Source: Nostoc sp. UHCC 0870 (lineage in GTDB: Bacteria; Cyanobacteriota; Cyanobacteriia; Cyanobacteriales; Nostocaceae). Taken from it: a DNA stretch of 32,000 nt. This document shows, in pieces, positions 1,576 through 21,579 of the stretch; position 1 is the first letter of the stretch; every line of letters begins with the position of its first letter. The notes beneath the pieces are model-generated. The model saw only the letters and a list, made by a program, of their open reading frames with translations. It did no database searches and was not told the origin of the DNA. A program made the position numbers and the translations under genes. The stretch covers positions 20,136-52,135 of the forward strand of contig NZ_CP091916.1 of the NCBI RefSeq assembly GCF_022063185.1, in the 5' to 3' direction.

Positions 1576-1603
1576 TTGACAACATTACCTAATTGCGTAT
1601 AAT
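1576..1603 (+). promoter_or_regulatory. near-consensus sigma70-type promoter for the hsdM operon
   Basis: TTGACA (1576-1581), a 16-nt spacer, then TATAAT (1598-1603). It lies in an AT-rich spacer about 40 nt upstream of the TTG at 1644. The -10 box overlaps the track start at 1593, which argues against that start. Confidence 0.6.
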
Positions 1604-1643
1604 CACAAAGCAGCAATTATATAGTAACTACTTATTTAAAACA

Positions 1644-3101
1644 TTGAGCGCGACTACTGATATCGTCCAAAAACTCTGGAATCTCTGTCATGTCTTGCGG
1701 GACGACGGGATTACTTATCTCGATTATGTAACTGAATTAACATACCTGCTGTTCCTGAAGATGGCGCAGGAAACAGGGACAGAAAGCCAAATCCCTGAAG
1801 GCTGTCGCTGGGGTGATTTGGTAGTCAAGGATGGCATCGAACAGATGAACTTTTACCGCGCCACCTTGTTAGAGTTAGGTTCTAACAGTACGCCGCTACG
1901 GGTGCAGGCTATTTTTGCTAATGCCCAAACTGCCCTGAAAAAACCGCAAATTCTCAATAAGCTGGTCAAAAGCATTGATGAACTGGACTGGTACTCTGCC
2001 AAGTCAGAAGGCTTAGGCGATTTGTACGAAGGACTGTTAGAGAAAAATGCCGGTGAGAAAAAATCTGGTGCAGGGCAATACTTTACGCCGCGTCCCTTGA
2101 TTGATTGCATGGTGGAACTCATCAAACCGCAACCGGGGGAACTGGTACAAGACCCCGCAGCCGGGACTGGTGGGTTTTTAATTGCCTCAGACCGCTATAT
2201 TAAAAAACATACCGATGATTTATTTGATTTAAGCGAAGCTGAACAGTCGTTTCAGCGTTACCAAGCATTCTGCGGTATTGAGTTGGTGCAGGATGCCCAC
2301 CGACTGTTATTAATGAATATGCTGCTACATGGCATTGAGGGGGCTGTAGATTTGGGCGATACTCTCTCCAGCGATGGGCAGCAGTTACCAAAAGCCAATG
2401 TTATCTTAACTAATCCCCCCTTTGGGACGAAAAAGGGCGGCGGACTGCCTACACGGGATGATTTTACTTATCCTACTTCCAACAAGCAGTTAGCTTTTTT
2501 ACAGCATATCTATCGCGGACTGTTACCCCAAGGACGGGCGGCGGTGGTGTTACCTGATAATGTGTTGTTTGAAGATGGTCAAGGGCGTAGCATCCGCGCT
2601 GATTTGATGGATAAGTGCAACCTACATACAATTTTACGGTTGCCTACGGGGATTTTCTACGCTCAAGGTGTCAAAACTAACGTGCTGTTTTTCCAACGGG
2701 GAACGACGGAGAAGGGGAATACCAAGCAGGTGTGGTTTTACGATATGCGGACGAATATACCTGTTTTTGGCAAGCGGACTCCTTTAACTAGAGAGCATTT
2801 TCGGGCATTTAAAGAAGTTTACGGGGATGATGCTAATGGGGGAAGTCCGCGTGTAGATGAAGGGGAGTTGGGACGCTGGCGTTGCTTTACGCGGGAGGAT
2901 ATTGCTAAACGCGGCGAAAACCTGGATATTACTTGGCTGCGGGATGAAAGTTTGCAGTCGGGGGATGATTTACCTGAACCAGATGTAATTGCGGCGGCTA
3001 TTATGACGAAGTTACAAACTGCGATCGCAGAAATGGAGGCGTTGACGGCGTTGCTAGAAGGGGAGGAAGAAACCGAGGATGAAGCCGCGCTTCTAGAATA
3101 A
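1644..3101 (+). CDS. hsdM: type I restriction-modification DNA methyltransferase subunit M (N6-adenine)
   Basis: HsdM_N-like IVQKLWNLCHVLRDDGI, AdoMet motif DPAAGTGGFL and catalytic TNPPFG. Start placed at the in-frame TTG 1644 (giving MSATTDIVQKLW) because the track start TTG 1593 sits inside the predicted promoter. There is no in-frame ATG or GTG between the two. Confidence 0.93.
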   Translation: MSATTDIVQKLWNLCHVLRDDGITYLDYVTELTYLLFLKMAQETGTESQIPEGCRWGDLVVKDGIEQMNFYRATLLELGSNSTPLRVQAIFANAQTALKKPQILNKLVKSIDELDWYSAKSEGLGDLYEGLLEKNAGEKKSGAGQYFTPRPLIDCMVELIKPQPGELVQDPAAGTGGFLIASDRYIKKHTDDLFDLSEAEQSFQRYQAFCGIELVQDAHRLLLMNMLLHGIEGAVDLGDTLSSDGQQLPKANVILTNPPFGTKKGGGLPTRDDFTYPTSNKQLAFLQHIYRGLLPQGRAAVVLPDNVLFEDGQGRSIRADLMDKCNLHTILRLPTGIFYAQGVKTNVLFFQRGTTEKGNTKQVWFYDMRTNIPVFGKRTPLTREHFRAFKEVYGDDANGGSPRVDEGELGRWRCFTREDIAKRGENLDITWLRDESLQSGDDLPEPDVIAAAIMTKLQTAIAEMEALTALLEGEEETEDEAALLE

Positions 3102-3127
3102 AAGCAAACCCACAGTCATCAATTCTT

Positions 3128-3745
3128 ATGACCCAAGCCTTACCAAAAATAGTCACCTTTGAGGACTTTATCGCGTGGTATCCCGAAAACTCAGGGGTAC
3201 GCTACGAACTGCACAATGGGGAAATTGTCGAAATGGCACAGCCTACAGGGAAGCATGAAAGGATAAAAGGATTTTCGGCGGCTGAATTGACTGTAGAGTT
3301 TAGACGATTAAACCTCCCCTACTTTATCCCTAATCAAGCAATAGTAAGACCACCGGAAAGAGAATCAGGTTATTTCCCAGATGTATTAATCCTCAATGAT
3401 GCGGCTTTAGTTGATGAACCGCTTTGGGAAAAATCTTCTACTGTGACTAAGGGTACATCAATTCCTTTAGTTATTGAGGTTGTCAGTACCAATTGGCGCG
3501 ATGATTACTATCTGAAGCTGGCTGATTATGAGGAGATGGGTATTCCTGAATATTGGATTGTTGACTATGCAGCATTGGGAGCTAGAAAATTTATTGGTAA
3601 TCCCAAACAACCCACTTTTTCAGTCTATCAACTAATTGATGGGGAATACCAAGTGAGTCAGTTTCGGGGTAGCGATAAAATCATATCTCCTACTTTCCCT
3701 GAGTTAAATTTGACGGCAGAAAAAGTTTTTAAAGCTGGTCAATAA
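3128..3745 (+). CDS. Uma2-family (DUF820) putative endonuclease, second copy, inside the R-M operon
   Basis: Same motif layout as 713..1327 (VIEVVSTNWRDDYYLKLADYEEMGIPEYWIVDY). It starts 26 nt after the hsdM stop on the same strand. Confidence 0.85.
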   Translation: MTQALPKIVTFEDFIAWYPENSGVRYELHNGEIVEMAQPTGKHERIKGFSAAELTVEFRRLNLPYFIPNQAIVRPPERESGYFPDVLILNDAALVDEPLWEKSSTVTKGTSIPLVIEVVSTNWRDDYYLKLADYEEMGIPEYWIVDYAALGARKFIGNPKQPTFSVYQLIDGEYQVSQFRGSDKIISPTFPELNLTAEKVFKAGQ

Positions 3746-3784
3746 TTATTGGATGTACTCAATTATCAGAGGTAGGTAGTTAAA

Positions 3785-4000
3785 ATGAGTGATAAACAAT
3801 TGCTAGAGAGGATTAAATTCGACAAAAATATTTTAGCTGGTAAACCAATTATTCGAGGATTAAGAATACCAGTGTCAATGATTTTAGAATTACTAGCCAA
3901 GGGTGCTAATAATCAAGAAATTCTTGAAGATTACCCAGAATTAGAACTAGAAGATATACAAGCTGCGTTATTTTATGCTGATTATCTTGTTTCTCAATAA
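3785..4000 (+). CDS. DUF433-domain protein (antitoxin-like small helix-turn-helix protein)
   Basis: ILAGKPIIRGLRIPVSMILELLAKGANNQEILEDYPELELEDIQAALFYA matches the DUF433 pattern as I remember it. The size (71 aa) is typical. Confidence 0.75.
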   Translation: MSDKQLLERIKFDKNILAGKPIIRGLRIPVSMILELLAKGANNQEILEDYPELELEDIQAALFYADYLVSQ

Positions 4001-4135
4001 GTAGAGATGAAATAGAAAAAGAAATTGCTAGTCGTCGCGGGGGATTACAGGAAACTGACGCATGAAGATAACTTTTATTTTTGATTAATTTTTTATTGTC
4101 GATATTCTAGAGTAATGTCTAAAGGAGAAACAGAA

Positions 4136-4390
4136 ATGCACAGTATTAAATTATCAAAGCGTGTCGGGGCAGATGGGATTTTACATTTAGATATTCCAGT
4201 AGGGATAACGGATAAAGAAGTAGAAATCATGGTGATTTATCAACCGCTAGAAAAACCAAATCAGCTAAAAACACCAGAGGAATTAGGTTGGCCTCCTGGT
4301 TTTTTTGAGCAGACTTATGGTAGTTGTCAGGATGACCCCATTGTTATTGATTCTGAAGGTGATTTTGAAGAAAGGGAAGAAATTGTGTGA
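4136..4390 (+). CDS. antitoxin partner of VapC (family not recognised)
   Basis: Small acidic-tailed ORF whose TGA (4388-4390) overlaps the GTG start of the PIN gene (GTGA). AAGGAG at 4122-4127 sits 8 nt before ATG 4136, so that start is preferred. The track ORF starts at ATG 4115. Confidence 0.7.
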   Translation: MHSIKLSKRVGADGILHLDIPVGITDKEVEIMVIYQPLEKPNQLKTPEELGWPPGFFEQTYGSCQDDPIVIDSEGDFEEREEIV

Positions 4391-4794
4391 GATATTTGCT
4401 GGATACTAATGTTTGCGCTCGTTATCTCAATGGTAGGTCACTGGCAATTCGGGAGCGTTTACGAGCAACAAATATTGCAGATATTGCTGTGTGTTCTGTG
4501 GTCAAAGGCGAGTTATTTTATGGTGCAATAAAAAGCAATAATCCTGAGAAAACTTTATCTAGACAGCAAGAGTTTCTCAAGTTGTTTGTTTCGCTGCCCT
4601 TTGATGATTCTGCTGCCCTCGTTTACGGAAGAATCCGTGCAGAACTGTCAGCTAATGGGACTCCTATTGGCCCCAATGATTTCCAAATTGCAGCTATTGC
4701 AATAGCGAATAATTTAATATTGGTTACACATAATACGCGCGAATTTAGTCGAGTGAATGGATTGCAAATTCAAGATTGGGAGGAAGAAATTTGA
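4387..4794 (+). CDS. vapC: PIN-domain toxin, VapC family
   Basis: MRYLLDTNVCARYL N-terminus with the first acidic residue, later acidic and THN motifs (VTHNTREF), 135 aa. It has a 4-nt overlap with the upstream small ORF. Confidence 0.9.
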   Translation: MRYLLDTNVCARYLNGRSLAIRERLRATNIADIAVCSVVKGELFYGAIKSNNPEKTLSRQQEFLKLFVSLPFDDSAALVYGRIRAELSANGTPIGPNDFQIAAIAIANNLILVTHNTREFSRVNGLQIQDWEEEI

Positions 4795-6377
4795 TGGAAG
4801 ATAGAGATGATTTACTAGAACTTCCAAGCGGATGGACATGGACAATAGTTAGGGAAGTTATTGAAATTATCGATTATAGAGGTAGAACACCCCCTTTTAG
4901 TGCGGGTGGAATTGTTCATCTACGTTCATCTAATATTAAAAATTGTCAAGTTATTTGGGAAGATTTAAAGTATGTTTCCGAAGAAATATACAACCAATTT
5001 ATGACAAGAGGAATACCTCAAAAAGGAGATTTACTTTTAACGACTGAAGGTCCACTAGGAGAAGTAGCACTAGCTCCTGAGCAAAAATTTTCAGTTGCCC
5101 AGAGAATGATGATTTTAAGACCAGTTAAAGGTATATTGTTATCAGAATTTTTACTCTATCAAATAGCGGCACCCTGGTTTCAAACCAAATTAAAAGGAGA
5201 AGGAACAGGAACTACTGTTACAGGAATTTCTTCCAGAAATTTTCAACCTTTGGAAATTGTTGTATCTCCCCTCAACGAACAACGCCGGATAGTTGCGAAA
5301 ATAGAGGCGTTGAAGGCTAGGAGTCAGCGAGTGAAGGAGGAGCTTGAGGATATTCCTCAACTGCTAGACCAGTTCCGTCAATCTGTCCTCGCCGCCGCCT
5401 TTCGTGGCGACCTCACTGCTGATTGGCGGGAGCAGAACAGTAATGTTGAACCTGCTTCAGTGTTGTTGGACAGGATTTATGAAAAATATAATAATCAATA
5501 TCAGGAAGATTGTTCTAAAGCTAAAGCAACAGGAAATAGAAAACCCAAAAAACCTGATTGTTTAATTGAATATAACTTGGCTTGGGAAGAAGTGTTTAAA
5601 ATTCCACAAACTTGGCTAGTAAGACCATTAGGCAAAGTATGTACAAAAGTTACTGATGGCACTCATGACACACCCAAGACAGTTTCACAAGGAATTCCTT
5701 ATATTACTGCTCAACACATTAGAAATGGTTTTATAGATTTTGAAAATTGTTTCTTTATTCCTGAGAGTGAGCATAAAATTATATATTCACGGTGCAACCC
5801 AGAAAAAGGAGATGTAATCATAGTCAATATTGGTGCAGGAACTGCCACACCAGCCCTAGTTAATAGGGACTTTGAATTTAGCATGAAGAATATCGCTCTA
5901 TTGAAACCAATAACTGAAGTTGTAGATGGAAAGTATCTTGAGTATTACCAACTAGCAATCAAGCCAAATATTTTCTCACGAGTTTCCCGGGGTGGGGCGC
6001 AACCTTTTATGAGTTTAAATCTGATTAAAACAATTCCTTTTAAGCTTTCACCACTTTCTGAACAAAAGGAAATTGTCAAAAGAGTAGAATTATTGTTAAA
6101 CCTTGCTGATAATATTGAACAACAGTACCAAGAAGCCAAAGCTAACATAGACCAACTCGACCAATCAATCCTAGCCAAAGCCTTTCGCGGCGAACTCGTA
6201 CCCCAAGACCCCGACGACGAACCAGCATCCGTCCTGCTAGAACGCATCCGCGCAGAACGCGCCAAACTCCAAACCAAAACAGCCAAAAAATCCACCACCA
6301 AAAGCAGCGCACGACGTACCAAAAAACCCCAACCACAACAAGAAGAATCGGTGCAGCTAGACCTGGGGTTAGAGTAG
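4794..6377 (+). CDS. hsdS: type I restriction-modification specificity subunit S with two target-recognition domains
   Basis: Duplicated conserved helices LRQSVLAAAFRGDLT..EPASVLLDRI and LDQSILAKAFRGELV..EPASVLLERI separate two divergent TRDs. ATG 4794 overlaps the vapC TGA by 1 nt (TGATG). The track start at 4776 lies upstream in the same frame. Confidence 0.9.
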   Translation: MEDRDDLLELPSGWTWTIVREVIEIIDYRGRTPPFSAGGIVHLRSSNIKNCQVIWEDLKYVSEEIYNQFMTRGIPQKGDLLLTTEGPLGEVALAPEQKFSVAQRMMILRPVKGILLSEFLLYQIAAPWFQTKLKGEGTGTTVTGISSRNFQPLEIVVSPLNEQRRIVAKIEALKARSQRVKEELEDIPQLLDQFRQSVLAAAFRGDLTADWREQNSNVEPASVLLDRIYEKYNNQYQEDCSKAKATGNRKPKKPDCLIEYNLAWEEVFKIPQTWLVRPLGKVCTKVTDGTHDTPKTVSQGIPYITAQHIRNGFIDFENCFFIPESEHKIIYSRCNPEKGDVIIVNIGAGTATPALVNRDFEFSMKNIALLKPITEVVDGKYLEYYQLAIKPNIFSRVSRGGAQPFMSLNLIKTIPFKLSPLSEQKEIVKRVELLLNLADNIEQQYQEAKANIDQLDQSILAKAFRGELVPQDPDDEPASVLLERIRAERAKLQTKTAKKSTTKSSARRTKKPQPQQEESVQLDLGLE

Positions 6378-6674: not shown

Positions 6675-7454
6675 ATGTTGACCATTACCGTAAGCTCCTT
6701 GAGTGGCGGACAGGGCAAGACGACGACCTCACTGTTCTTGGGGCGGCTGCTATCACGCCAGGGCTTGCCCACCTTGATGCTAGACTCCGACCCCCAACAT
6801 AATCTCACTACCTATCTGGGGTTTGAGTTAGAACCCAACCAACCAACCCTATTGGAATTTCTCAAAAAAACAGTTGCACCACAAGACTGCATTTACCCAA
6901 CACAAGACAACGACAACTTATTTCTCATCCCTGCCGATGACCAACTTGATACCGTACAAGATTATTTATCTAACAGTGGAGTGGGTGCAACCTTACTCAA
7001 ACGACGATTGGAAGCCATCAGCAAAATATTCAAAGTGTGCATTATAGATGCCCCACCCCAGCGATCGCAAATTTGTTTGACAGTCATCGGCGCAGCAGAT
7101 TTTTTGATTATCCCCGCCGAAGCATCAGTTAAAGGTTACGGTTCGCTAGTGCGGACACTGGACTTACTCAGTGGCTTGCAAGATGTCGGCGCAACGAATG
7201 CCCAAGTATTAGGTGTTTTACCCTTCCGCGATCGCTGGTTTGGTAACACCCAAGCCCAAGAAAGTCGGGCGGCTGTAGATGGAATGCGTGACGAAGTTGG
7301 CGAGGAGTTAGTTATACCCTCAATCCGCGAATCAGAACGCTATAAACAAGCCATCAACAAACGTACAACTTTGAGCGAGTTGGGATATACCGACTTGGAA
7401 TATCCATTTGAAATTTTAATTGAGAAAATTCAGGCTGCACTTGGGGGTAAATAA
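6675..7454 (+). CDS. parA: ParA/Soj-family partition ATPase
   Basis: Deviant Walker A SLSGGQGKTTT, Walker A' LMLDSDPQ and Walker B CIIDAPP. The size (259 aa) fits. Confidence 0.9.
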   Translation: MLTITVSSLSGGQGKTTTSLFLGRLLSRQGLPTLMLDSDPQHNLTTYLGFELEPNQPTLLEFLKKTVAPQDCIYPTQDNDNLFLIPADDQLDTVQDYLSNSGVGATLLKRRLEAISKIFKVCIIDAPPQRSQICLTVIGAADFLIIPAEASVKGYGSLVRTLDLLSGLQDVGATNAQVLGVLPFRDRWFGNTQAQESRAAVDGMRDEVGEELVIPSIRESERYKQAINKRTTLSELGYTDLEYPFEILIEKIQAALGGK

Positions 7455-7456
7455 TA

Positions 7457-7915
7457 ATGTCAGATAACGTACTCAACCAACTACGCAATAAACGCAATCG
7501 CTCCACAGTTGAACCACGCCAGGATGCACTCGTTCCCAAAGTACAACCAGAACCCCAAACAGAAGAACAAAACTCACCACAGGAAACCAGCCCAGTACCA
7601 GCTACCGACAACCCAACTGCTACACCAGCAGACACAATCGCTGAACTTCAAGCCGAACTGGAAAAGTACCCCGAAACACGACGACATTCAGCGATCGTTT
7701 TAGAAAAAGACCTCGACCAAGAATTAACACGGTTTTGTAAAGATAGGGGCATCACAGTTGAGGTATTTCTAGAAGCTGCTTGGACTTTTGCTAATGCAGA
7801 TAACGCACTTTTAGAAAAAATTACCACTGAAGCCAAACGCCGCTACGACCAACGTAAGCGAGTTGGTCAAATTAAGCGGTTAATAACTATGTTGAGTAAT
7901 TCATCAAAGGAATAA
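7457..7915 (+). CDS. putative centromere-binding partition partner (ParG-like, ribbon-helix-helix C-terminus)
   Basis: Starts 2 nt after the parA stop. It has a basic N-terminal peptide (NQLRNKRNRS), a P/Q/T-rich linker and an RHH-like segment HSAIVLEKDLDQELTRFCKDRGITVEVFLEAAW. The functional call rests on position only. Confidence 0.45.
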   Translation: MSDNVLNQLRNKRNRSTVEPRQDALVPKVQPEPQTEEQNSPQETSPVPATDNPTATPADTIAELQAELEKYPETRRHSAIVLEKDLDQELTRFCKDRGITVEVFLEAAWTFANADNALLEKITTEAKRRYDQRKRVGQIKRLITMLSNSSKE

Positions 7916-8011
7916 ATGTTGGGCGATCGCATCGGTGAATGAATGCAACTTACGAGTGTAGTGAATATGCAGCCAGATGAATGATACTGTTTGAGCGTTT
8001 GATTGTGATAT

Positions 8012-8419
8012 ATGACTAAAACCAACTCAGAAATTTTAGAACAGCTAAAACAGGCATCGTCAGGCTTGTTGTTTATGAGCGAGTCAGATTACCCATTTGA
8101 GGTTTTTTTGTGGGAAGGAGTTGCACCTCCTGTTACACCTGAAATAGTCTTGCAGCAGACAGATCATGGACAAGATACGTCTTTTAAAGTGGTAGACATT
8201 GACAGCTTTTTTAGCAGAGTAACTACTCCCCAAGACTGGCATGAGGATGCAGAAAAGGCTGTAGTTGCTAAATTTCAAAAACTGCTAGAGGTAATAAAAT
8301 CGAATTTAAAAAACCCGCAGGTGTATCGCTTGGGAAGGATTGAAATCGATGTTTATATTATTGGTGAAACTCAAAGAGGAAATTTAGCTGGTCTTTCTAC
8401 TAAAGTTGTGGAAACCTAG
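8012..8419 (+). CDS. nuiA: nuclease A inhibitor NuiA
   Basis: 135 aa. MTKTNSEILEQLKQAS..LFMSESDYPFEVFLWEG... matches my memory of Anabaena sp. PCC 7120 NuiA almost along its length. It is convergent with nucA. Confidence 0.85.
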   Translation: MTKTNSEILEQLKQASSGLLFMSESDYPFEVFLWEGVAPPVTPEIVLQQTDHGQDTSFKVVDIDSFFSRVTTPQDWHEDAEKAVVAKFQKLLEVIKSNLKNPQVYRLGRIEIDVYIIGETQRGNLAGLSTKVVET

Positions 8420-8436
8420 ATTAATTGTTGTTCAGG

Positions 8437-9291
8437 TCAATTAACGGTCACATTATCAACTTTAGATTCAATCACTGACTGAATATTTGGGGAAACATTA
8501 GACAGGAAATCATAGCCTGTGAGTGTTTCTAATTCGTCAACACTGACTTTATAAGCCCTCCAATCGTTATTTAATTCTGGCTCGTTGGGAATATTCACTG
8601 CGATAACGCGAGTATTAGCTGTAATACCTTTAAGCCCTGAGCCTGGGCTATCTAATACAACAACTATCTTCCAAGTGGATTTGGGAACTGTCACTTTACC
8701 TTTGAGGGGTTCGCCAAGACTACCACTAGGCCCAGCGACAATATAAAGTTCTTTACCCTGGCTGACTAATTCTCGACAATAATCTTCTAAATTTCCCCAC
8801 GTATTTCTATTGTTATCGGGTGTCTGGGGCATCATGTTTGTCATCAGGAAAGTAGCTGCATTATCCTCTATTGTTCGGGTGCGGTCTGCTGAAGGTGCAA
8901 TATGACCTCTGTCATATCCACTTCCAGAGTACATAGAAGGAGTCACTCGCACCCAACCCGCAGGTAAGGTGTTGTCTGGGCGGAAGTTATCTTGACGCTC
9001 TGCATCTCCGAACCATGAGGAGTTAAGCTGCCAAGCTACCCAGTTGGCAGTTCCCTTGCTGTTGTTGTAGGAGAGTGCATATTGATTTTTGACCATCAGG
9101 TAATTATCAGGCGTAAGCTTTGTTGGCGTTGCACCACTGGGATTTCCCAGCAGTAAATGCACGCTTATTGATGGGGAAAGTTCAGTTAATGGTGGCACTT
9201 GGGACTGGGCTGGCGAACAACCGACAATCAACGCCACCAACGCCGCTACAGATACACCCCAATTTCGACAAATTCCCATAAATTGACGCAC
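8437..9291 (-). CDS. nucA: secreted sugar-non-specific DNA/RNA endonuclease NucA
   Basis: Active-site motif GYDRGHIAPSADR and downstream NMMPQ..N, as in Serratia/Anabaena-family nucleases. Signal or lipobox-like N-terminus VAALVALIVGCSP. An alternative start is Met5 at 9279. Confidence 0.9.
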   Translation of the reverse strand: MRQFMGICRNWGVSVAALVALIVGCSPAQSQVPPLTELSPSISVHLLLGNPSGATPTKLTPDNYLMVKNQYALSYNNSKGTANWVAWQLNSSWFGDAERQDNFRPDNTLPAGWVRVTPSMYSGSGYDRGHIAPSADRTRTIEDNAATFLMTNMMPQTPDNNRNTWGNLEDYCRELVSQGKELYIVAGPSGSLGEPLKGKVTVPKSTWKIVVVLDSPGSGLKGITANTRVIAVNIPNEPELNNDWRAYKVSVDELETLTGYDFLSNVSPNIQSVIESKVDNVTVN

Positions 9292-9717
9292 TCTTAGAGA
9301 TTTATTTCACTTCAGCATTTCTGATTGTATTTCCTGACTTTCACTCAGCTAGGCTTCAAATTGTAAAGTCTCCTGCCCCATCAGATCTGATTTTTCCTCT
9401 CTCGAAGCCATCGCATCGCATCCTTGTACGCATCTTCTCACTAACTCACAGGATGATATAACCCTGTATTTTGGTTAAATTCCCAGCCTAGCCCTGCTCT
9501 ATCCTTGCTCTTGCACCATGCCACAAAAAGCGCATGAGTGTTTGCCCCAGCTTGCGACACTGGTGCGCTCGCCATAGTACCAGTGCCACAAGATGGGTCA
9601 GATAGAGTGCTACACTGCGCTCGCCTACTTCAGTTTGTTACTTCAGTCCAGTATGATTAAATTCTTTTAAAGTTCTAAATTTATGAAAATTACCAGACCA
9701 CTTTAGGCAATGGAGAA

Positions 9718-10233
9718 TTGAATAATAACAGTAATTTAATGGATATCAACCAACAAAAAGAACAATTTAGCATCACCTATATTAGAGCCATCGCCGCCGT
9801 TGCAGGTTATTCTTTATATAGACCAGAAGTAGATAACGATAGTGTAGACTTAGGCATAGTTAGTAGAGGTGGCACAGGTAAAATCCTTTCTCCTAGACTA
9901 GAACTACAACTAAAATGTACAGCCAGAGAGATTCTTGAGGAAAACTATATTAAATATCCCCTCAATCTCAAAAATTATAATGATTTAAAAATCAATGCCC
10001 TTGTCCCTCGAATTTTAGTAGTTGTTTTAGTTCCCGAAAAAATAACAGATTGGATAAAACAAACAGAATCCGAACTGTGTCTGAGATATTGTGCTTACTG
10101 GGTATCCTTGCGCGGGATGCCAGACACAGAAAATATAACCAATGTTACTATTGAAGTACCCCGTAGTAATCAGTTTACGCCTGATGCACTGCAAGCCATT
10201 ATTGAACGCATTAGTTTTGGAGGTTTGCCATGA
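9718..10233 (+). CDS. DUF4365-like PD-(D/E)xK nuclease-fold protein
   Basis: The pattern G(E/Q)xFxxxYIRAIAAVAGY ... D44-LGI ... E62-L-Q-L-K66 ... ILVVVLVP ... W fits DUF4365 as I remember it. The track start is TTG 9718; ATG 9739 is an alternative. Confidence 0.65.
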   Translation: MNNNSNLMDINQQKEQFSITYIRAIAAVAGYSLYRPEVDNDSVDLGIVSRGGTGKILSPRLELQLKCTAREILEENYIKYPLNLKNYNDLKINALVPRILVVVLVPEKITDWIKQTESELCLRYCAYWVSLRGMPDTENITNVTIEVPRSNQFTPDALQAIIERISFGGLP

Positions 10234-10769
10234 AAGTTACTATTAAAGATAGTCAAATCCTCAAAACAGTTAACCCTGAAGTGATACAGGCACATTTGCA
10301 AGCAACAGGCTGGCATGAAACAGGGCGTATATATAATGATGCCGGGGCAATTTGGCGACTGAAAAAAGATGCCGCCGAATATGAAATCTTGCTACCTCTC
10401 CAACATAGTTTAGGAGATTATGCTGAAAGAATCAGCGATATATTAAAAACATTAGAGATAGTAGAAAATCGTGACCAAGTTGAAATATTAAGCGAATTTA
10501 TTACCAATTATCCCAACTTCACCTTTCTTGGCATAATTATGCAAATTGCCACTCCATCAATTGATTCTCTGAGTGGAGAAATTATTTTATTAGGTGAAGT
10601 TTTTGAGAAATTACGAGAAATCAAAACCCAACTGGCAGACCATGATTATATCTTAGCTATTCAAGCCTATCAGGAACGTTTACCAGTTCGCTGCACAGGT
10701 GATTTAGTAAAAGTTGACAATCATTTTATTCTCGAAAATCCCCACAATTTGCTTCTTAATAATATCTAA
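10230..10769 (+). CDS. hypothetical 179-aa protein translationally coupled to the DUF4365-like gene
   Basis: Its ATG overlaps the upstream TGA (ATGA at 10230-10233). Clean ORF; no family recognised. Confidence 0.6.
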   Translation: MKVTIKDSQILKTVNPEVIQAHLQATGWHETGRIYNDAGAIWRLKKDAAEYEILLPLQHSLGDYAERISDILKTLEIVENRDQVEILSEFITNYPNFTFLGIIMQIATPSIDSLSGEIILLGEVFEKLREIKTQLADHDYILAIQAYQERLPVRCTGDLVKVDNHFILENPHNLLLNNI

Positions 10770-10938
10770 ATCCGGCTGGTCAAGATTTTTAGGTTTTTTC
10801 TAAATCAATTCTGATATCGAGTCACTCATCTGCTGAGGGCAAACGCTGGCGGTTATCATTCATATTTCAATGCCGTCTGCACTTGAGCGTGTCTGCTGAA
10901 TCGCACAGTTGCACGGTAGTTGCCATTATTGAGATGCA

Positions 10939-11448
10939 ATGTCAATCATGAGTCAGATAGAGCCACTGCCAGAAGAAAAAAGCATTACCATCTATGACAT
11001 GATGGACGAAATCTTAGTAGTTTGTCCAGGCTGCCAATCGTGTGCGCGAATTACTCCAACAAAAAATGCAAATACATTTTGTTTAAGCTACTTCCAACCA
11101 CAGCGTCTTGTGTGTCAAGATTGTGGGCTAGTCAAAGATTGGAATGGTAAGGGTTTGGGATTTAACTGGTATGCCGACCCAATGTGCGATAGCTACTTTA
11201 GACTACCACTGTGGCTACAGATTAGCTGTCGTCATCATGTTTTGTGGGCATACAACGAACGCCATCTATTACTACTAGAAAAATATATTCAGGCAAAACT
11301 ACGTCAATCAAAACGCGTTGCACCATACGGTTGGCATAATCAAAGCCTATTTAGTCGTTTGCCAAAATGGATGGTTATTGCTAAAAATCGCTCTAGCGTA
11401 TTAAGCGCGATCGCAAAACTTAAGCGAAAATCTCAAAAGATTGGCTGA
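10939..11448 (+). CDS. hypothetical zinc-ribbon protein
   Basis: Two CxxC pairs (CPGCQSC ... CQDCG) near the N-terminus and a basic C-terminal tail. No family recognised. Confidence 0.5.
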   Translation: MSIMSQIEPLPEEKSITIYDMMDEILVVCPGCQSCARITPTKNANTFCLSYFQPQRLVCQDCGLVKDWNGKGLGFNWYADPMCDSYFRLPLWLQISCRHHVLWAYNERHLLLLEKYIQAKLRQSKRVAPYGWHNQSLFSRLPKWMVIAKNRSSVLSAIAKLKRKSQKIG

Positions 11449-11820
11449 TGTTTAAGAATCGAAGAGAAAATATTCAAAAATCCAAAGCACAGATCGCATT
11501 CTTTCAGGACTTGTATAGAAATTGGTACAGACGAGCGTATATACACAAGCTCACTCAAAGCAAGTAAAGACCACAGCGATGGCCTACGCTCGACCTTACG
11601 AGATTGCTGTTGCTTTTGCTCTTGCTCCCAGGAGCGGTTTCTAAACTGACTTGCCCAAAAACTGCTGCACCTGAAACCCACATCCCGCTATCAATTTTGA
11701 TATCAAAGCCGGAAATTACAGAACTAGCATCACCAATTGACACTCTATCACTTCCGCAAAACGGATTTAGGTGTTCACGGATTGTAAATATTAATGCACG
11801 ATGTAAGTGACCTACAATAG

Positions 11821-11852
11821 ACGTTATTGGAAACATACATTATCAATAACGT
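11821..11852. other. candidate tyrosine-recombinase core site (13-6-13 inverted repeat)
   Basis: ACGTTATTGGAAA - CATACA - TTATCAATAACGT. The arms match 11/13, and the outer 9 bp are perfect. It ends 14 nt before the recombinase ATG. Confidence 0.4.
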
Positions 11853-11866
11853 AATAGTGAGCAATT

Positions 11867-12889
11867 ATGCCTAATGAGCCGGTTTGGGGGGAATTGGTTA
11901 AAGTCGAGTTAGAAGCGTGTTTAAGTGCGCCGATAACTAGGTATTTTGACGCAGAGCTTCAGGGCGACCCGGATGTGTTGGCGCAGCTGTTGGCAGATAA
12001 ACGCAACCCCAATACTCGGCGTGCTTACGAGAAAGATTTGCGGGATTTCTTTATGAAGATGACTCTAATGCCGCCAAGTGGTGATAGCGTGCTGGAGTTT
12101 CTGCACTTGCAGCGAGAGCAAGCGGTGATGGTGGTGCTGAAGTACAAAGCGAAATTGATAGCTTCGGGGGTGCGGGAGGCCACAATTAATCGGCGGTTGG
12201 CGGCGATTAAGTCTTTGGCGAAGATGGGGCGCAAGCTGGGTGTGTGCAATTATTCCCTGGAAGATGTCGAGGGGGAGAAGGTCAAGGCTTATCGGGATAC
12301 GCGGGGGGTTGATAGCAAGACGATAGCACTTGTGTTACAGCAGTTTGACCGGGAGACTTTGATTGGTAAACGCAACTATGCAATCTTTCTGGTGCTGTGG
12401 GGTTTGGCTTTGCGTCGTCAGGAGATATGTCAGTTAAATGTGGGTGACTTTGATTTTTATGGGCGCAAGTTAAGGGTTTTGGGTAAGGGTAAGGGAACGA
12501 ATGAAGAATATTTAGATATGTCCAAGGATGTGGCGGCGGCTCTTGCAGATTGGTTAATTGCTAGGGGGGATTTGAATGTTAATTTACCAATTTTTACGGC
12601 GTTAGATTTTCATAATGAGGGGCATAGATTGACTGCGGATGCTATCTATAAAATTGTGTCGGCAGCTTTTAAGAAAGCGGGGGTGAAGAAACCGATGTCA
12701 CCGCACAGGGTGAGGCATTCGGCGATTACGGCGGCATTGGATGCGACGGATGGGAATATCAGAAAGGTGCAGAAGTTAAGTCGTCATGCTGACCCCAGAA
12801 CACTGATGATTTATGATGATAACCGCAATAAAGATTTGTGGGAAATGTCGGAGTTGTTAACGGGAATGTTGAAGGATTCGGGCGAATGA
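11867..12889 (+). CDS. tyrosine site-specific recombinase (XerC/D-like, probable plasmid resolvase/integrase)
   Basis: Catalytic signature in order: ALRRQEI (Arg I), LGKGKG (Lys), HRVRHSAIT (His-x-x-Arg), SRHADPRTLMIYD (His, Tyr). Confidence 0.9.
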   Translation: MPNEPVWGELVKVELEACLSAPITRYFDAELQGDPDVLAQLLADKRNPNTRRAYEKDLRDFFMKMTLMPPSGDSVLEFLHLQREQAVMVVLKYKAKLIASGVREATINRRLAAIKSLAKMGRKLGVCNYSLEDVEGEKVKAYRDTRGVDSKTIALVLQQFDRETLIGKRNYAIFLVLWGLALRRQEICQLNVGDFDFYGRKLRVLGKGKGTNEEYLDMSKDVAAALADWLIARGDLNVNLPIFTALDFHNEGHRLTADAIYKIVSAAFKKAGVKKPMSPHRVRHSAITAALDATDGNIRKVQKLSRHADPRTLMIYDDNRNKDLWEMSELLTGMLKDSGE

Positions 12890-18445: not shown

Positions 18446-21178
18446 GTGCATACTACACAGACAACTACAACACAGACTGCTAACAGACTGACTGACAGAC
18501 ATTATAAAGAGTGCGTCACCAACCGGGGCTTGTGTCCAGAATGGATAGCTGTTAACTGTCGCTCAATGGACACCAAAGAAGCGAGCCAACGCTTAGGATA
18601 CACAGCAAAATCAGCAGGCATCTGGCTAGAAGGAGTCGACGGTTTTGGGCAGTATCGCCCTAACAAGCCCTGGAAAAGCGTAGACGAGAAGAAAGCACCC
18701 AAGTATCGGACAGCGACCAAAGAAGAATATGACGCAATGCTACCCCGTCATCCTCATAATCCGGGCTACTGGCAGGATTATGAGGCACTTAAACCACTTT
18801 GCTATCAGATCAACGGTCATCCTTGCTTAGTTGTAACTGAGGGATTATTTAAGGCGATCGCCGGCTGTTTTCACGGATTCCCTACAGTTGCGCTCGCTGG
18901 AGTGGAACAGGGCTTAACACCGACGGCTAGCGACCCCCAAGGCAAACGTTACCTAGTCGATACCCTAGAATTATTAGCCCGTGCTAAGTTTGGATGGATT
19001 ATTGCTTTTGACGCAGACGAATGCGCCCAAACTAATAAAAATGTGGTGGCAGCACAAAGAAAACTAGCTCATCAATTAGCTAAGTTTAAAGTACCTGTGT
19101 ACATTGCCACGGGCTTATGGAGTGCAGCAGAAGGTAAGGGGATGGACGATTACATTCAGGCCAACGGCGACGACGCTTTTAGAGACAAAGTGTTAGCTAA
19201 GGCTGTTAATTTTGAAATTTGGGAACGCCAGTTCAAAGAAGACGATGCTGATAACAAAACTTTGTCAGAATCCGCTTTTGCGGCACAAATCGCCGAAGAT
19301 TACCGTGCCAAGCTAGCTTGGCACGTAGCCAACAAAGCTTGGTACTGGTATGAAGCAGAAAATAAGTGCGGGGTCTGGAGTGAAATTCCCTCTGAAGAGG
19401 CGATGTCAATTGTTTTAACAGAACTGGAAACGCGGACACGCCATTTCTCCAGCAGGTTTGTCAACGGTGTTTTGACTTTACTCAAGGCCAAACTCAGGGT
19501 TAATCACTGGGAAGTCCGCAAAGGTTTTATTTGTCTTCAGGATTGTGTGCTGGATGTGAATACCCTCAAAGAATATCCACATGAGCCGGGATACAGAATG
19601 CTGAGTCAGCTACCTTTTAAATGGGCTGACCGCAGTGTAGGTTGTGAGCCTGTGAAGGAATGGTTGCTGGAAGCTTGCGAAGGTAAAGCCGACTGGGTGG
19701 AAGTTATTCGCGCTGGGATTAATGCGACCGTCACCGAACGCGGCGGCGAGTTACAAAGATTTATGGAGCTAGTGGGTGCTGGCGGTACTGGCAAAGGTAC
19801 TTTATTGCGGCTGGTGCAAGCACTACTGGGCAGAGAAAACTACGCCATCACCGAACTGAAGCAGTTGGAGCAAAACCGCTTTGAAACTGCGGCTCTCTAC
19901 GGCAAGAAAGCTGTGTTTATCACTGACTCTGAACGCTACACAGGTGATGTTAGCACTCTCAAGAAATTGACAGGTGATGATGAGCTGCGACACGAGAAAA
20001 AAGGCATTCAGCAAACAGGCAGTTTTAGATTTAGTGGGGTGGTCTGGATTGCTGCCAACGAAATCATTCAAAGCAGTGATTACACTAACGCCCTGTCCCG
20101 TCGTCGTCTCTCCATGCCTTTTGAGCGGGTGGTGCCACAAAATGAGCGTCGCCCCTTAGAAAAGGAATTTCAGCCATACTTGCCTGGGGTATTGCAATGG
20201 GTTTTAGAGATGTCGGCTTTGGATGTCGCTGCTTATGTCGGTGACACTAACAAACTAGTGCCTTCACTTGGCTCGTTTAGCACAGAGGTACTGTTAAGCA
20301 CTAACCCTCTGGCTGATTGGGCTAATGACCGTCTTTACTATGACCCGAAAGCACAAACGCAAATCGGTGATAACGGTCAAAGTGCTGAATTGTTCCTCTA
20401 TCCTAACTACTGCGAATGGGCGCAGCGTAATTCTCACGGCATTATGACTAAGCAACGATTCTCAGCCATTTTGCTGAATCTGCTGAATTCTCAACTCAAC
20501 ATTAATGCTGCAAAAGTGAGAAACAAGAAAGGACGTTTTATCACTAAAATTGCTATTCGCCAGTCAGGACAAGACTTTCCGCTCTTAATCTCGGAAAAAG
20601 ATGCTGACCTTGATGCTGACTTTCATAAAAGTCATGCTAACCCGGTGCTGACTTCTATGCTAACTGAAAGTATTGATAGTGCTGACTTTCAGAATGGTGC
20701 TGACCTTTTGGCTGATAGTAACGCATCTGACACCACCAACCAACACTACTTGATGAACACTACTAGCAGTCAAAATCAGGAGGATAAGTCAGCACAGTCA
20801 GCACAGTCAGCACTACCAAGGGTTTCAGCCAGCACTACTGACAGCACTACCGATATCACCACACAAAAACAAGTCAGCACCAAACAACGAATGATTGAGA
20901 CTTGGGAGAACAAGTCAGCCTTGGGTGAAATCGTTCTAAATCTTGATAGTGCTGAATTACAGCAAATTGCTAAAGGTTTCAGTCCTGAACAAGTGCAATA
21001 TATCAAGGACGCAGCTAATAGCGTGTGGCAGTTAGGTGCAAATTCATTGGCTGATTACAACGGCGAACTAGTCTACATTTGGGAGTGCGGACAATCAAAC
21101 GATGTTCGCATTGGTACTAAGACTCAGGCTGGCGCAAAAGTTAGACGCGCTCATCTGCGTCCTTGGTTAGGCATTTGA
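18446..21178 (+). CDS. plasmid replication primase-helicase (DUF3854/Toprim-like N-domain plus P4/D5-type NTPase; CyRepA-like)
   Basis: Toprim-like CLVVTEGLFKA and IIAFDADE. Walker A VGAGGTGKGT, Walker B AVFITDSE, then the WIAANE motif. GTG start 18446 with GGAG 9 nt upstream. Low-complexity linker near residue 720-800. Confidence 0.88.
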   Translation: MHTTQTTTTQTANRLTDRHYKECVTNRGLCPEWIAVNCRSMDTKEASQRLGYTAKSAGIWLEGVDGFGQYRPNKPWKSVDEKKAPKYRTATKEEYDAMLPRHPHNPGYWQDYEALKPLCYQINGHPCLVVTEGLFKAIAGCFHGFPTVALAGVEQGLTPTASDPQGKRYLVDTLELLARAKFGWIIAFDADECAQTNKNVVAAQRKLAHQLAKFKVPVYIATGLWSAAEGKGMDDYIQANGDDAFRDKVLAKAVNFEIWERQFKEDDADNKTLSESAFAAQIAEDYRAKLAWHVANKAWYWYEAENKCGVWSEIPSEEAMSIVLTELETRTRHFSSRFVNGVLTLLKAKLRVNHWEVRKGFICLQDCVLDVNTLKEYPHEPGYRMLSQLPFKWADRSVGCEPVKEWLLEACEGKADWVEVIRAGINATVTERGGELQRFMELVGAGGTGKGTLLRLVQALLGRENYAITELKQLEQNRFETAALYGKKAVFITDSERYTGDVSTLKKLTGDDELRHEKKGIQQTGSFRFSGVVWIAANEIIQSSDYTNALSRRRLSMPFERVVPQNERRPLEKEFQPYLPGVLQWVLEMSALDVAAYVGDTNKLVPSLGSFSTEVLLSTNPLADWANDRLYYDPKAQTQIGDNGQSAELFLYPNYCEWAQRNSHGIMTKQRFSAILLNLLNSQLNINAAKVRNKKGRFITKIAIRQSGQDFPLLISEKDADLDADFHKSHANPVLTSMLTESIDSADFQNGADLLADSNASDTTNQHYLMNTTSSQNQEDKSAQSAQSALPRVSASTTDSTTDITTQKQVSTKQRMIETWENKSALGEIVLNLDSAELQQIAKGFSPEQVQYIKDAANSVWQLGANSLADYNGELVYIWECGQSNDVRIGTKTQAGAKVRRAHLRPWLGI

Positions 21179-21284
21179 TGAGCAGCTTAACTACGCTGGT
21201 TAAGCAAAACTCATGTTGTCTTAACTTACTTGGGATATGAAAGCTGGACTCTTAAAGCATGAGTGAGAGCCAGTGCTGGGCATC

Positions 21285-21392
21285 GCTGTTGCGTGGTCGC
21301 GGCTTGAAAATTGCGATCACCTACGGTGGGGCGTAGCCCATCGCGTGGGGGCATGAATGCTGTTGCCTGGTCGCGGCTTGAAAATTGCGATC
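21285..21392. repeat. two copies of a 34-bp direct repeat downstream of rep
   Basis: GCTGTTGC(G/C)TGGTCGCGGCTTGAAAATTGCGATC at 21285-21318 and 21359-21392, with 1 mismatch. Each copy contains a GGTCGC...GCGATC hairpin. Confidence 0.7.
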
Positions 21393-21579
21393 GCGCCAAA
21401 CAGATGAATGAAGCCATTCGAGATTGAGGCTTGGATTACACGAAATGGCTCGAACGTGTAATGCTGCATCACTCAAAGATCGAAACTTAAGCTATAAACT
21501 TTTTATCTCAATTACGTAATTCAGAACATAAACCATGTGGTATATAAGTAATTAAAATGCCAAGCTTACGAGGTAGTAC

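What the first reader, a model, noticed from the sequence alone, without database searches (positions are those of the whole stretch)
9718..10769. Translationally coupled DUF4365-like nuclease plus unknown partner: candidate two-gene defence or addiction cassette
A 171-aa protein with a PD-(D/E)xK-type signature (D44 ... E62-L-Q-L-K66) overlaps by ATGA a 179-aa protein that I cannot assign to any family. The pair sits in a stretch full of nucleic-acid conflict genes: type I R-M, vapBC, Uma2 and nucA/nuiA. It is preceded by a 426-nt non-coding spacer and followed, after a 169-nt gap, by a CxxC..CxxC zinc-ribbon ORF (10939..11448). A small nuclease tightly coupled to an uncharacterised partner is the standard architecture of toxin-immunity or abortive-infection modules. 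I know of no described system with this composition.
Basis: partly seen in the sequence, partly recalled or inferred. Interest (0 to 1): 0.65.

Follow-up and report, generated by a model that had tools for sequence, protein, structure and literature searches.

The report
Small nuclease with OB-fold keeper protein
Two overlapping genes on a cyanobacterial plasmid-like element encode a small DNA/RNA-cutting enzyme of the kind used by Argonaute immune systems and a nucleic-acid-binding partner that appears to keep it in check; the pair is a shortened form of an untested candidate anti-virus system already listed in a defence database.

Summary
Two co-directional genes overlap by ATGA at 10230-10233. 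Gene A (probable start ATG 9739, 164 aa) is a DUF4365/DREN-type PD-(D/E)xK nuclease with an intact D...QxK motif. Its model best matches the nuclease domain of SPARDA complexes.

Gene B (10230..10769, 179 aa) is not unassignable. With A it matches the PADLOC candidate system PDC-M02, so the composition is already catalogued, though untested. B is a short form: it lacks the ~200-aa central domain of the usual ~380-aa PDC-M02B. What remains is an N-terminal alpha/beta domain plus an OB fold.

The short A-B pair is conserved in 318 cyanobacterial genome loci and sits on Nostocales plasmids between parA and a tyrosine recombinase. In one locus it lies between hsdS and hsdR.

Decay is asymmetric. 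A is inactivated in 27 of 69 loci with intact B. B is intact in 57 of 57 loci with intact A. Orphan B stays under purifying selection.

A Nodularia phage encodes a stand-alone copy of B's N-domain.

The zinc-ribbon ORF is not associated with the pair.

Best reading: a toxin/antitoxin-like nuclease module serving abortive defence and/or plasmid addiction. Function is inferred, not shown.

The parts
9739..10233 (+). Gene A: 164-aa stand-alone DUF4365/DREN-type PD-(D/E)xK nuclease (an alternative upstream TTG at 9718 gives 171 aa). Conserved D37 ... E55-x-Q57-x-K59.
   Evidence: Pfam PF14280 E 3e-29 over profile positions 1-138 of 139. PADLOC PDC-M02A E 2.6e-61. Homologues are 164 aa. Invariant D37, Q57, K59. 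AF2 model pLDDT 81.9. Its best PDB matches are DREN-APAZ chains of SPARDA, E 5e-6, TMq about 0.6 over about 160 columns, followed by EcoRV and Hjc.
10230..10233 (+). ATGA overlap: stop codon of A inside the start of B (translational coupling)
   Evidence: Read directly from the sequence. The same 4-nt overlap occurs in 39 of 40 related genome loci scored as having both genes intact.
10230..10769 (+). Gene B: 179-aa short-form PDC-M02B, the partner of the nuclease
   Evidence: PADLOC PDC-M02B E 1.3e-38 in two stretches: B 1-94 matches profile 1-94 and B ~95-172 matches profile ~287-376 of ~380. More than 130 close homologues of ~180 aa, all named ones cyanobacterial. 2620 representatives in the wider family, mostly ~380 aa. 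Alignment shows a clean absence of ~205 central residues. AF2 pLDDT 89.8, pTM 0.78.
10230..10505 (+). B N-terminal alpha/beta domain (residues ~1-92; helix, three strands, two helices). Proposed A-binding or keeper module.
   Evidence: Secondary structure of the model. The domain is conserved between short and long forms. It is shared with Cylst_2839, which has a different C-terminus. A stand-alone homologue exists in Nodularia phage gp166. The A-binding role is inference.
10506..10757 (+). B C-terminal OB-fold domain (residues ~93-176; three strands, helix, two strands). Proposed nucleic-acid-binding or sensing module.
   Evidence: The top Foldseek PDB matches are almost all OB-fold proteins: PolC OB domain, bacterial SSBs, PriB, RPA and CST. 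E 4e-3 to 6e-2, probability 0.9-1.0, ~90-100 columns. Nucleic-acid binding is inferred from the fold.
9292..9738 (+). Upstream intergenic region presumed to hold the promoter of the A-B operon (not defined)
   Evidence: No ORF of known family and no Rfam match. The consensus promoter scan was uninformative. The first ~100 nt match the region next to nucA on other Nostocales plasmids.

Best explanation
The pair is a two-gene, toxin/antitoxin-like nuclease module. It is the short-partner form of the candidate defence system PADLOC calls PDC-M02.

Shown:
- A is a stand-alone DREN/DUF4365 PD-(D/E)xK nuclease with its active-site residues intact.
- B is made from the same transcript by translational coupling.
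- B consists of a conserved N-terminal alpha/beta domain and an OB fold.
- The pair is conserved as a unit in filamentous cyanobacteria. It lies on plasmids next to partition and recombinase genes and, in places, inside or beside restriction-modification operons.
- A is never kept without B, while B is often kept without A.

Inferred:
- B binds A, probably through its N-domain, and holds it as an inactive, non-oligomerised enzyme.
- A trigger relieves the restraint. The trigger could be phage nucleic acid or a replication intermediate sensed by the OB fold. It could also be loss or degradation of B after plasmid loss.
- A then self-associates, as DREN domains do in SPARDA filaments, and degrades DNA and/or RNA non-specifically. 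This kills or arrests the cell, giving abortive infection and/or post-segregational killing.
- The phage-encoded copy of B's N-domain would then act as an antitoxin mimic.
For: Identity of A:
- Pfam DUF4365, PDC-M02A, invariant D/QxK.
- The model's best matches are SPARDA DREN domains.
- DUF4365 is an experimentally shown collateral nuclease whose monomeric DREN domain is activated by tetramerisation (PMC10810196; PMC12205087 abstract).

Identity of B:
- PDC-M02B in two stretches, short versus long alignment, OB fold.

Coupling and co-occurrence:
- ATGA overlap in 39 of 40 loci scored as having both genes intact.
- A lies directly upstream of B across Nostocales, Microcoleus and other filamentous cyanobacteria.
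- Both short and long B follow A in metagenome loci.

Keeper relationship:
- In loci found through B, 27 of 69 with intact B have an inactivated A. The lesions are independent: nonsense codons in L051, L053, L059, L074, L058 and L078, frameshifts, internal deletions and an insertion.
- In loci found through A, B is intact in 57 of 57 evaluable cases. Fisher p = 5e-9.
- Orphan B is under purifying selection. Two Cylindrospermum species share the same A deletion and their B genes have dN/dS 0.16 at dS 0.52.

Conflict and mobile-element context:
- parA - hyp - A - B - tyrosine recombinase on plasmids pNPUN04 and pTCL26-01_E, and in the window.
- hsdS - A-B - hsdR in L044, and a DpnII/MboI REase next to the pair in L050.

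Arms-race hint:
- Nodularia phage gp166 is a homologue of the B N-domain, and Nodularia genomes carry the A-B pair.
Against: - No experiment exists for any member. The PDC systems are explicitly untested.
- No test of A-B binding could be run, because no multimer prediction was available.
- B has no recognisable antitoxin-type DNA-binding domain and no Pfam family.
- The nuclease-first gene order is the less common one for type II toxin-antitoxin pairs (own knowledge).
- The OB-fold assignment rests on modest Foldseek E-values (4e-3 and weaker).
- The two ascertainment sets come from different collections, genomes versus metagenomes. Only the best 80 loci of each were examined, so the asymmetry could be partly a sampling effect.
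- Several neighbourhoods are not defence-like, for example mutS and an FAD oxidoreductase.
Confidence: 0.55

Rival explanations
1. Pure sensor-effector defence system without any antitoxin role. B is only a nucleic-acid sensor that switches on an otherwise harmless A, as short pAgo/APAZ does for the DREN domain in SPARDA.
For: A is structurally a DREN domain. DREN is inactive as a monomer until assembled by its sensor. B has an OB fold suited to nucleic-acid sensing. The pair occurs in RM-embedded contexts.
Against: If A alone were harmless, loss of B should be seen about as often as loss of A. Instead it is 0 of 57 against 27 of 69. Orphan B is kept under purifying selection without its effector. 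A pure sensor model does not predict either result.
Confidence: 0.2
2. Plasmid addiction module only (post-segregational killing), with no role in phage defence.
For: The pair sits in the maintenance region of Nostocales plasmids, between parA plus its partner gene and a tyrosine recombinase. Translational coupling and the decay asymmetry are typical of toxin-antitoxin pairs.
Against: Most of the more distant loci, such as the Microcoleus ones, show no parA or recombinase neighbour by the test used. Some pairs are embedded in or next to restriction systems. The long-form family was picked up by embedding in defence systems. A phage carries a homologue of the B N-domain. Addiction and abortive defence are also not mutually exclusive.
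Confidence: 0.15
3. A solitary restriction-like enzyme. B is the DNA-recognition subunit that directs nuclease A to foreign DNA, for example modified DNA. There is no self-toxicity.
For: A has the restriction-endonuclease fold and matches EcoRV. B has nucleic-acid-binding folds. The pair neighbours RM genes.
Against: This model does not explain why A is so often inactivated while B is maintained under selection. The closest characterised relatives of A are non-specific collateral nucleases.
Confidence: 0.07
4. Housekeeping recombination or repair factors of the plasmid: a junction-resolving nuclease plus an SSB-like protein working with the neighbouring tyrosine recombinase.
For: The A model also resembles archaeal Holliday-junction resolvases Hjc (E 6.5e-4, TMq ~0.45-0.5). 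B has an SSB-like OB fold. A recombinase is adjacent in 17 of the 26 closest loci.
Against: The distribution is patchy and multi-copy, with tandem paralogous pairs. A is frequently a pseudogene. The pair occurs in chromosomal and RM-embedded locations without a recombinase. The best structural match is an immune effector domain, not a resolvase.
Confidence: 0.03

Closest known systems
PADLOC phage defence candidate PDC-M02 (PDC-M02A + PDC-M02B)
   Same: Both window proteins hit the PDC-M02 models and nothing else in the lists shown (A E 2.6e-61 over the full profile, B E 1.3e-38). The gene order and adjacency match a two-gene cassette. Short-form pairs also occur embedded in a type I RM operon (L044), the context used to predict PDCs.
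   Different: B is ~180 aa instead of ~380 aa. It lacks profile positions ~95-290, the whole central domain. This short form is an old, diversified, cyanobacteria-centred clade, not a one-off deletion. PDC systems are untested predictions. Reading 'M' as 'multi-gene', and tracing PDC-M02 to that paper, are my inferences from its wording; its main text does not name PDC-M02.
SPARDA (short prokaryotic Argonaute with DREN-APAZ nuclease partner)
   Same: A belongs to the same domain family (DUF4365 = DREN). It has the same QxK active-site signature, and the DREN chains of SPARDA structures are its best structural matches. SPARDA suggests how A is controlled: the monomer is inactive and the oligomer is an active collateral nuclease.
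   Different: A is the nuclease domain alone (164 aa) and has no APAZ domain. The partner is a 179-aa protein with an OB fold, not a ~450-500-aa short Argonaute (size from own knowledge). Nothing indicates guide-dependent target recognition.
Type II toxin-antitoxin and abortive-infection modules
   Same: Two small, translationally coupled genes. The location is on plasmids and mobile elements. The nuclease is repeatedly lost while the partner persists as an orphan under selection. A possible phage-encoded mimic of the partner exists.
   Different: Neither protein belongs to a described toxin or antitoxin family. B has no HTH, RHH or AbrB-type DNA-binding domain. The nuclease gene comes first. 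Toxicity and neutralisation have not been tested.
Divona (integron-cassette anti-phage protein with an N-terminal DUF4365 domain)
   Same: It is another case of a DUF4365 domain used in a validated anti-phage system outside Argonaute systems (bioRxiv 10.1101/2024.07.02.601686).
   Different: Divona is described as a single fused protein (DUF4365/RecB-like nuclease plus a crr6 domain), not a two-gene pair with an OB-fold partner. No sequence comparison was made here.

Membership tests
Pfam DUF4365 (PF14280) / DREN nuclease domain | Score above the Pfam gathering threshold across the whole domain | tested here: met
   102.2 bits against a cutoff of 24.3, E 3.1e-29, profile positions 1-138 of 139.
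Pfam DUF4365 (PF14280) / DREN nuclease domain | PD-(D/E)xK-type active site with the family's Q-x-K signature | tested here: met
   D37, Q57 and K59 (164-aa numbering) are invariant in 39 homologues and present in the window protein. The QxK corresponds to Q62/K64 of TmuRE (PMC10810196).
Pfam DUF4365 (PF14280) / DREN nuclease domain | Restriction-endonuclease-like fold resembling solved DREN domains | tested here: met
   AF2 model pLDDT 81.9. The top 11 PDB matches are SPARDA DREN-APAZ chains (E 5e-6 to 4e-4, TMq 0.54-0.64), followed by EcoRV and Hjc.
SPARDA system | Nuclease fused to an APAZ domain and paired with a short Argonaute (MID-PIWI) | tested here: not met
   A is 164 aa and the DUF4365 match covers residues 15-164 of the 171-aa ORF. 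The only coupled partner is a 179-aa protein with no Pfam family and an OB fold. None of the window ORFs scanned shows an Argonaute domain.
PADLOC PDC-M02 candidate system | A protein matching PDC-M02A | tested here: met
   E 2.6e-61, residues 8-168 against profile positions 3-164 of 167. All 25 families listed are PDC-M02A.
PADLOC PDC-M02 candidate system | An adjacent protein matching PDC-M02B over its length | tested here: inconclusive
   The match is significant (E 1.3e-38) but comes in two stretches covering only profile positions ~1-94 and ~287-376 of ~380. The central ~200 positions are absent. Whether PADLOC's own coverage rule would call the system was not testable here.
PADLOC PDC-M02 candidate system | Demonstrated anti-phage activity | not testable with these tools
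   PDC systems are described as untested candidates. No paper in the held library mentions PDC-M02.
Type II toxin-antitoxin system | Two small adjacent co-transcribed genes conserved as a pair | tested here: met
   ATGA overlap in the window and in 39 of 40 loci scored as having both genes intact. B follows intact A in 57 of 57 evaluable loci.
Type II toxin-antitoxin system | Toxin is harmful alone and is neutralised by direct binding of the antitoxin | not testable with these tools
   There is only indirect support: A is never kept without B, and B is kept without A in 27 of 69 loci.
Type II toxin-antitoxin system | Antitoxin carries a DNA-binding domain for autoregulation (HTH, RHH, AbrB and similar) | tested here: not met
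   No such Pfam, NCBIfam or fold match was found for B. Its domains are an alpha/beta domain and an OB fold.
OB-fold nucleic-acid-binding proteins (B C-terminal domain) | Five-stranded barrel topology with a helix between strands 3 and 4, and structural similarity to known OB folds | tested here: met
   The model has strands 93-106, 115-124 and 127-136, a helix 137-149, then strands 153-162 and 165-176. The top PDB matches are SSB, PriB, RPA and the PolC OB domain, with probability 0.9-1.0 but E of only 4e-3 to 6e-2. Binding itself was not tested.

The most novel reading that the evidence does not exclude
The short A-B pair is a minimal, Argonaute-independent way of controlling a DREN collateral nuclease. 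B's N-domain is a dedicated inhibitor (antitoxin) of A. B's OB fold releases A on binding phage nucleic acid. Cyanophages such as vB_NspS-kac65v162 counter the system with gp166, a stand-alone mimic of the inhibitor domain. Orphan B genes kept without A would then act as anti-addiction or immunity genes against incoming A-B elements.
Probability: 0.25. Interest if true: 0.75.

Novelty: new variant of a known kind. Interest (0 to 1): 0.55.

Why it matters
DREN/DUF4365 nucleases are so far understood only as effectors of short-Argonaute systems, where filament assembly switches them on. This locus shows the same nuclease as a free 164-aa protein governed by a 179-aa two-domain partner. That makes it one of the smallest possible settings in which to study how such a collateral nuclease is restrained and released.

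The comparative signals give concrete, cheap experiments for a family that is in a defence database but has never been tested. The signals are that the nuclease is never kept without the partner, that the partner is kept under selection on its own, and that a phage carries a copy of the partner's N-domain.

The pair is also a common, unannotated component of Nostocales plasmid maintenance regions. This matters for plasmid stability and for genetic tool building in cyanobacteria.

Tried and rejected
- Zinc-ribbon ORF C (10939..11448) as a third component: rejected. tblastn finds no homologue in 79 related genome loci or 2 plasmid loci. Only sub-threshold zinc-ribbon Pfam hits were found.
- One-off internal deletion of B: rejected. 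The ~180-aa form is conserved from 100% down to ~38% identity in hundreds of loci.
- Sequence search of A and of an A profile against PDB chains: no hit.
- B profile against PDB chains: only noise.
- NCBIfam: nothing for A, B or C.
- Pfam on 68 short and long B-family members: nothing significant. SUKH-3 immunity protein matched in 4 of 68 members at E >= 0.09, which is too weak to use.
- Pfam on long forms: no family for the central domain.
- tblastn of B against 50,697 phage records: no credible hit. The phage homologue was found only by fold search and profile methods.
- Short A-B pair in IMG/VR viral contigs: none.
- Relatives of gp166 outside Nodularia phages: none.
- Rfam on 9000-12000: nothing.
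- Promoter and terminator consensus scan: not above shuffles in any useful way.
- Literature: no paper mentions PDC-M02. DUF4365 papers concern SPARDA and Argonaute systems or mention the domain only in passing.
- My first guess that 'PDC-M' meant candidates from Millman et al. 2022 was dropped after reading the PADLOC group's preprint.
- Lost job: the first structure model of B was lost on the server and had to be recomputed. The two runs gave the same result.
Reading the translations showed they are intact, and the counts were corrected to 42 intact and 27 inactivated.
Full report
**1. Observation**

The two ORFs are present as described: 9718..10233 (+) and 10230..10769 (+). They share ATGA at 10230-10233. 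The flanking gaps and the ORF at 10939..11448 are also as stated.

Two details need correcting.
- Nearly all homologues of the first protein are 164 aa, and annotated plasmid copies are 495 nt. The start is therefore most likely ATG 9739 rather than TTG 9718.

**2. What gene A is**

- A matches Pfam DUF4365 end to end (E 3e-29).
- Its AlphaFold2 model (pLDDT 81.9) is most similar to the DREN nuclease domain of DREN-APAZ chains in solved SPARDA complexes: 9vx6, 9qcc, 9qbp, 9jt2 and 9jsz, with E 5e-6 to 4e-4 and TMq 0.54-0.64 over about 160 columns. EcoRV and archaeal Hjc resolvases follow.
- DUF4365 is an experimentally shown non-specific nuclease. Its proposed active site is a QxK (Q62/K64 in TmuRE; PMC10810196).
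- In NbaSPARDA the monomeric DREN domain becomes active when filament formation tetramerises it (PMC12205087 abstract).
- A is the nuclease domain alone. It has no APAZ domain, and no Argonaute is coupled to it.

**3. What gene B is**

- B has no Pfam or NCBIfam family. It does hit the PADLOC models PDC-M02B, and A hits PDC-M02A.
- The B match comes in two pieces. Residues 1-94 match profile positions 1-94, and residues ~95-172 match positions ~287-376 of a ~380-position profile.
- A profile search of 1.84 billion representatives found 2620 relatives. Most are 375-400 aa with the same split match. An alignment shows a clean absence of about 205 central residues in the window protein.
- This is not a private deletion. 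More than 130 close homologues are ~180 aa at 49-100% identity. 318 loci were found in species-representative genomes, and all 79 examined are cyanobacterial. Further short forms down to ~38% identity follow A in metagenome contigs.
- The AlphaFold2 model of B is confident (pLDDT 89.8, pTM 0.78).
- The model has an N-terminal alpha/beta domain (residues ~1-92). Its core runs helix, three strands, helix, which resembles a dsRBD in topology only; the RNase III, R2D2 and DRBM matches are weak.
- The C-terminal domain (residues ~93-176) has the classic OB-fold order of three strands, a helix and two strands.
- The best PDB matches are OB-fold single-strand binders, namely the PolC OB domain, SSB, PriB and RPA. 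Probabilities are high but E-values are modest, 4e-3 and weaker.

**4. Prior description**

- 145 single- and multi-gene candidates were added to PADLOC, explicitly untested (bioRxiv 10.1101/2024.01.29.577857). That paper's main text does not name PDC-M02, so tracing PDC-M02 to it is an inference.
- No paper in the held library mentions PDC-M02.
- The DUF4365 literature concerns SPARDA-type systems, plus one integron-borne fused protein, Divona.
- The composition is therefore catalogued as a candidate. It has not been characterised, and the short-B architecture is not described as such.

**5. Conservation of the pair and its surroundings**

- In the 79 genome loci, A lies directly upstream of B. 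39 of 40 loci scored as having both genes intact have the same 4-nt overlap.
- The zinc-ribbon ORF has no homologue in any related locus. It is not part of the unit.
- The pair occurs on at least seven Nostocales plasmids.
- On pNPUN04 and pTCL26-01_E the order is parA-like ATPase, small hypothetical, DUF4365, B, then a tyrosine recombinase.
- The window shows the same backbone: ParA 6675..7454, a 152-aa ORF, A-B, and a recombinase at 11867..12889. nuiA/nucA is inserted upstream of A and ORF C downstream of B.
- A plasmid-type primase/helicase (18446..21178) and an NB-ARC/TPR protein also lie in the window.
- Among the 26 closest genome loci, 17 have the recombinase next to B and 9 have ParA. 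The more distant loci do not, by this test.
- Elsewhere the short pair sits between hsdS and hsdR (L044) or beside a DpnII/MboI endonuclease (L050). It also lies next to unrelated genes.
- The pair has 34-39% GC against 44-52% in the flanking genes.

**6. Asymmetric decay**

- Loci found through B: of 69 with intact B and enough upstream sequence, A is intact in 42 and inactivated in 27.
- The lesions are independent:
  - different single nonsense codons in six Microcoleus genomes (L051, L053, L059, L074, L058, L078);
  - frameshifts (L012, L056, L070);
  - internal deletions that leave only the first and last codons (L018, L032, L061);
  - a ~3-kb insertion (L008);
  - bare 3' relics (L046, L047 and others).
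- Loci found through A: every one of 57 evaluable loci with intact A has an intact B. 50 are short and 7 are long.
- The difference is significant (Fisher p = 5e-9).
- Orphan B is not merely young debris. Two Cylindrospermum species share the same A deletion and the same replacement sequence. Their B genes differ with dN/dS 0.16 at dS 0.52. This is within the range of the other pairs, 0.10-0.32 for A-dead pairs and 0.13-0.49 for A-intact pairs.
- Caveat: the two sets come from different collections, and only the best 80 loci of each were kept.

**7. A phage copy of the B N-domain**

- The best BFVD match of the B model is a 101-aa protein of Nodularia phage vB_NspS-kac65v162 (E 2e-6, TM 0.77 on the target, rmsd 1.9).
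- I located it as gp166 (MK605244, 112830..113135), between thyX and the dTMP kinase gene.
- A B-family HMM finds it as the only significant ORF in the phage (E 2e-8). It aligns to B residues 9-89. hhalign gives 95.4% probability.
- Relatives exist only in the same phage group.
- Nodularia genomes carry the A-B pair.
- The second BFVD match is a 381-aa long-form protein of Leptospira phage LE1.

**8. Mechanism**

What is shown:
- a DREN-type nuclease with intact active-site residues;
- obligatory, translationally coupled co-occurrence with a two-domain OB-fold protein;
- carriage on mobile elements and, in places, within defence loci;
- loss of the nuclease tolerated, loss of the partner not observed;
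- the partner maintained by selection on its own.

What I infer:
- B binds A and keeps it from self-associating. Because the N-domain is the part shared with the phage protein and with a variant partner (Cylst_2839), I take it to be the A-binding module.
- The OB fold senses a nucleic-acid cue, or B is lost after plasmid loss.
- Freed or assembled A then degrades nucleic acids non-specifically, giving abortive infection and/or post-segregational killing.

I give this reading about 0.55. The rivals are set out in the rival explanations with what would refute each. They are a pure sensor-activator, addiction only, a specific restriction enzyme, and a plasmid recombination factor.

**9. Comparison, novelty and score**

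- The locus works like a toxin-antitoxin or abortive-infection module with a SPARDA-type effector.
- It is a member of Pfam DUF4365.
- It is not a SPARDA system: it has no APAZ domain and no Argonaute.
- By HMM it belongs to the PDC-M02 candidate family, with a partner that lacks the family's central domain.
- It cannot be filed in any described toxin-antitoxin family.
- I rate it a new variant of a known (candidate) kind, with interest 0.55.
- The locus nevertheless offers a minimal, testable model for control of a collateral nuclease, a clear genomic signature of a keeper relationship, and a possible phage counter-measure.

Noticed in passing
L082:12830-13135 (MK605244.1 112830..113135, Nodularia phage vB_NspS-kac65v162 gp166): A 101-aa cyanophage protein is a stand-alone homologue of B's N-terminal domain (Foldseek E 2e-6; HMM E 2e-8; hhalign 95.4%). 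It sits among nucleotide-metabolism genes. It may be an anti-defence mimic of the partner protein. Relatives are found only in the same phage group.
   Followed up: partly
P0077 (Cylst_2839, 279 aa) next to P0289 (Cylst_2840, DUF4365), Cylindrospermum stagnale PCC 7417: This partner is 87% identical to B over the first ~105 residues and then continues with an unrelated ~170-aa C-terminus in place of the OB fold. It lies beside an 85%-identical A. This suggests a modular partner in which the N-domain is constant and the C-terminal module can be swapped, or else a rearranged gene.
   Followed up: no
L057 (5468-8366), L068 (5228-7469), L074 (5507-7748), Microcoleus genomes: Two paralogous A-B pairs lie in tandem a few hundred bases to ~1.3 kb apart. 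Their A proteins are ~46% and ~60% identical to the window A. In L074 the first A carries a nonsense codon.
   Followed up: partly
L044:4166-9895 (Scytonema hyalinum MAG): A short A-B pair lies between hsdS and hsdR of a type I restriction-modification operon. This is the embedding context used to predict PADLOC's defence candidates.
   Followed up: partly
window 6675..12889; L164 and L165 (plasmids pTCL26-01_E, pNPUN04): A conserved Nostocales plasmid backbone runs parA-like ATPase, small ORF, A, B, tyrosine recombinase. In the window nuiA/nucA (8012..9291) is inserted before A and ORF C after B. The recombinase is on the opposite strand relative to the plasmids.
   Followed up: partly
window 10939..11448 (+): The 169-aa CxxC...CxxC ORF has only sub-threshold zinc-ribbon Pfam hits. 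It has no homologue in any of 81 loci related to the A-B pair. It appears to be a local insertion of unknown function.
   Followed up: partly
window 1593..6377: The type I RM genes hsdM (1593..3101) and hsdS (4776..6377) are separated by a Uma2-family gene (3128..3745) and a PIN-domain gene (4387..4794, overlapping hsdS). These are genes embedded in an RM operon. No hsdR was found among the window ORFs scanned. A second Uma2 gene lies at 713..1327 (-).
   Followed up: partly
window 18446..24033: A DUF3854/D5_N/DUF5906 primase-helicase-like protein (910 aa) and an NB-ARC plus TPR STAND-type protein (646 aa) lie downstream. Several large ORFs have no Pfam family (24034..25908, 27142..29271 and 30184..31353, all on the minus strand). 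The whole window looks like a plasmid or integrated mobile element.
   Followed up: no
BFVD Q6NE06 (Leptospira phage LE1, 381 aa): A long-form relative of B is encoded by a temperate, plasmid-like leptophage (Foldseek E 2e-6 over 375 columns). The long form of the family is therefore also carried by mobile elements.
   Followed up: no
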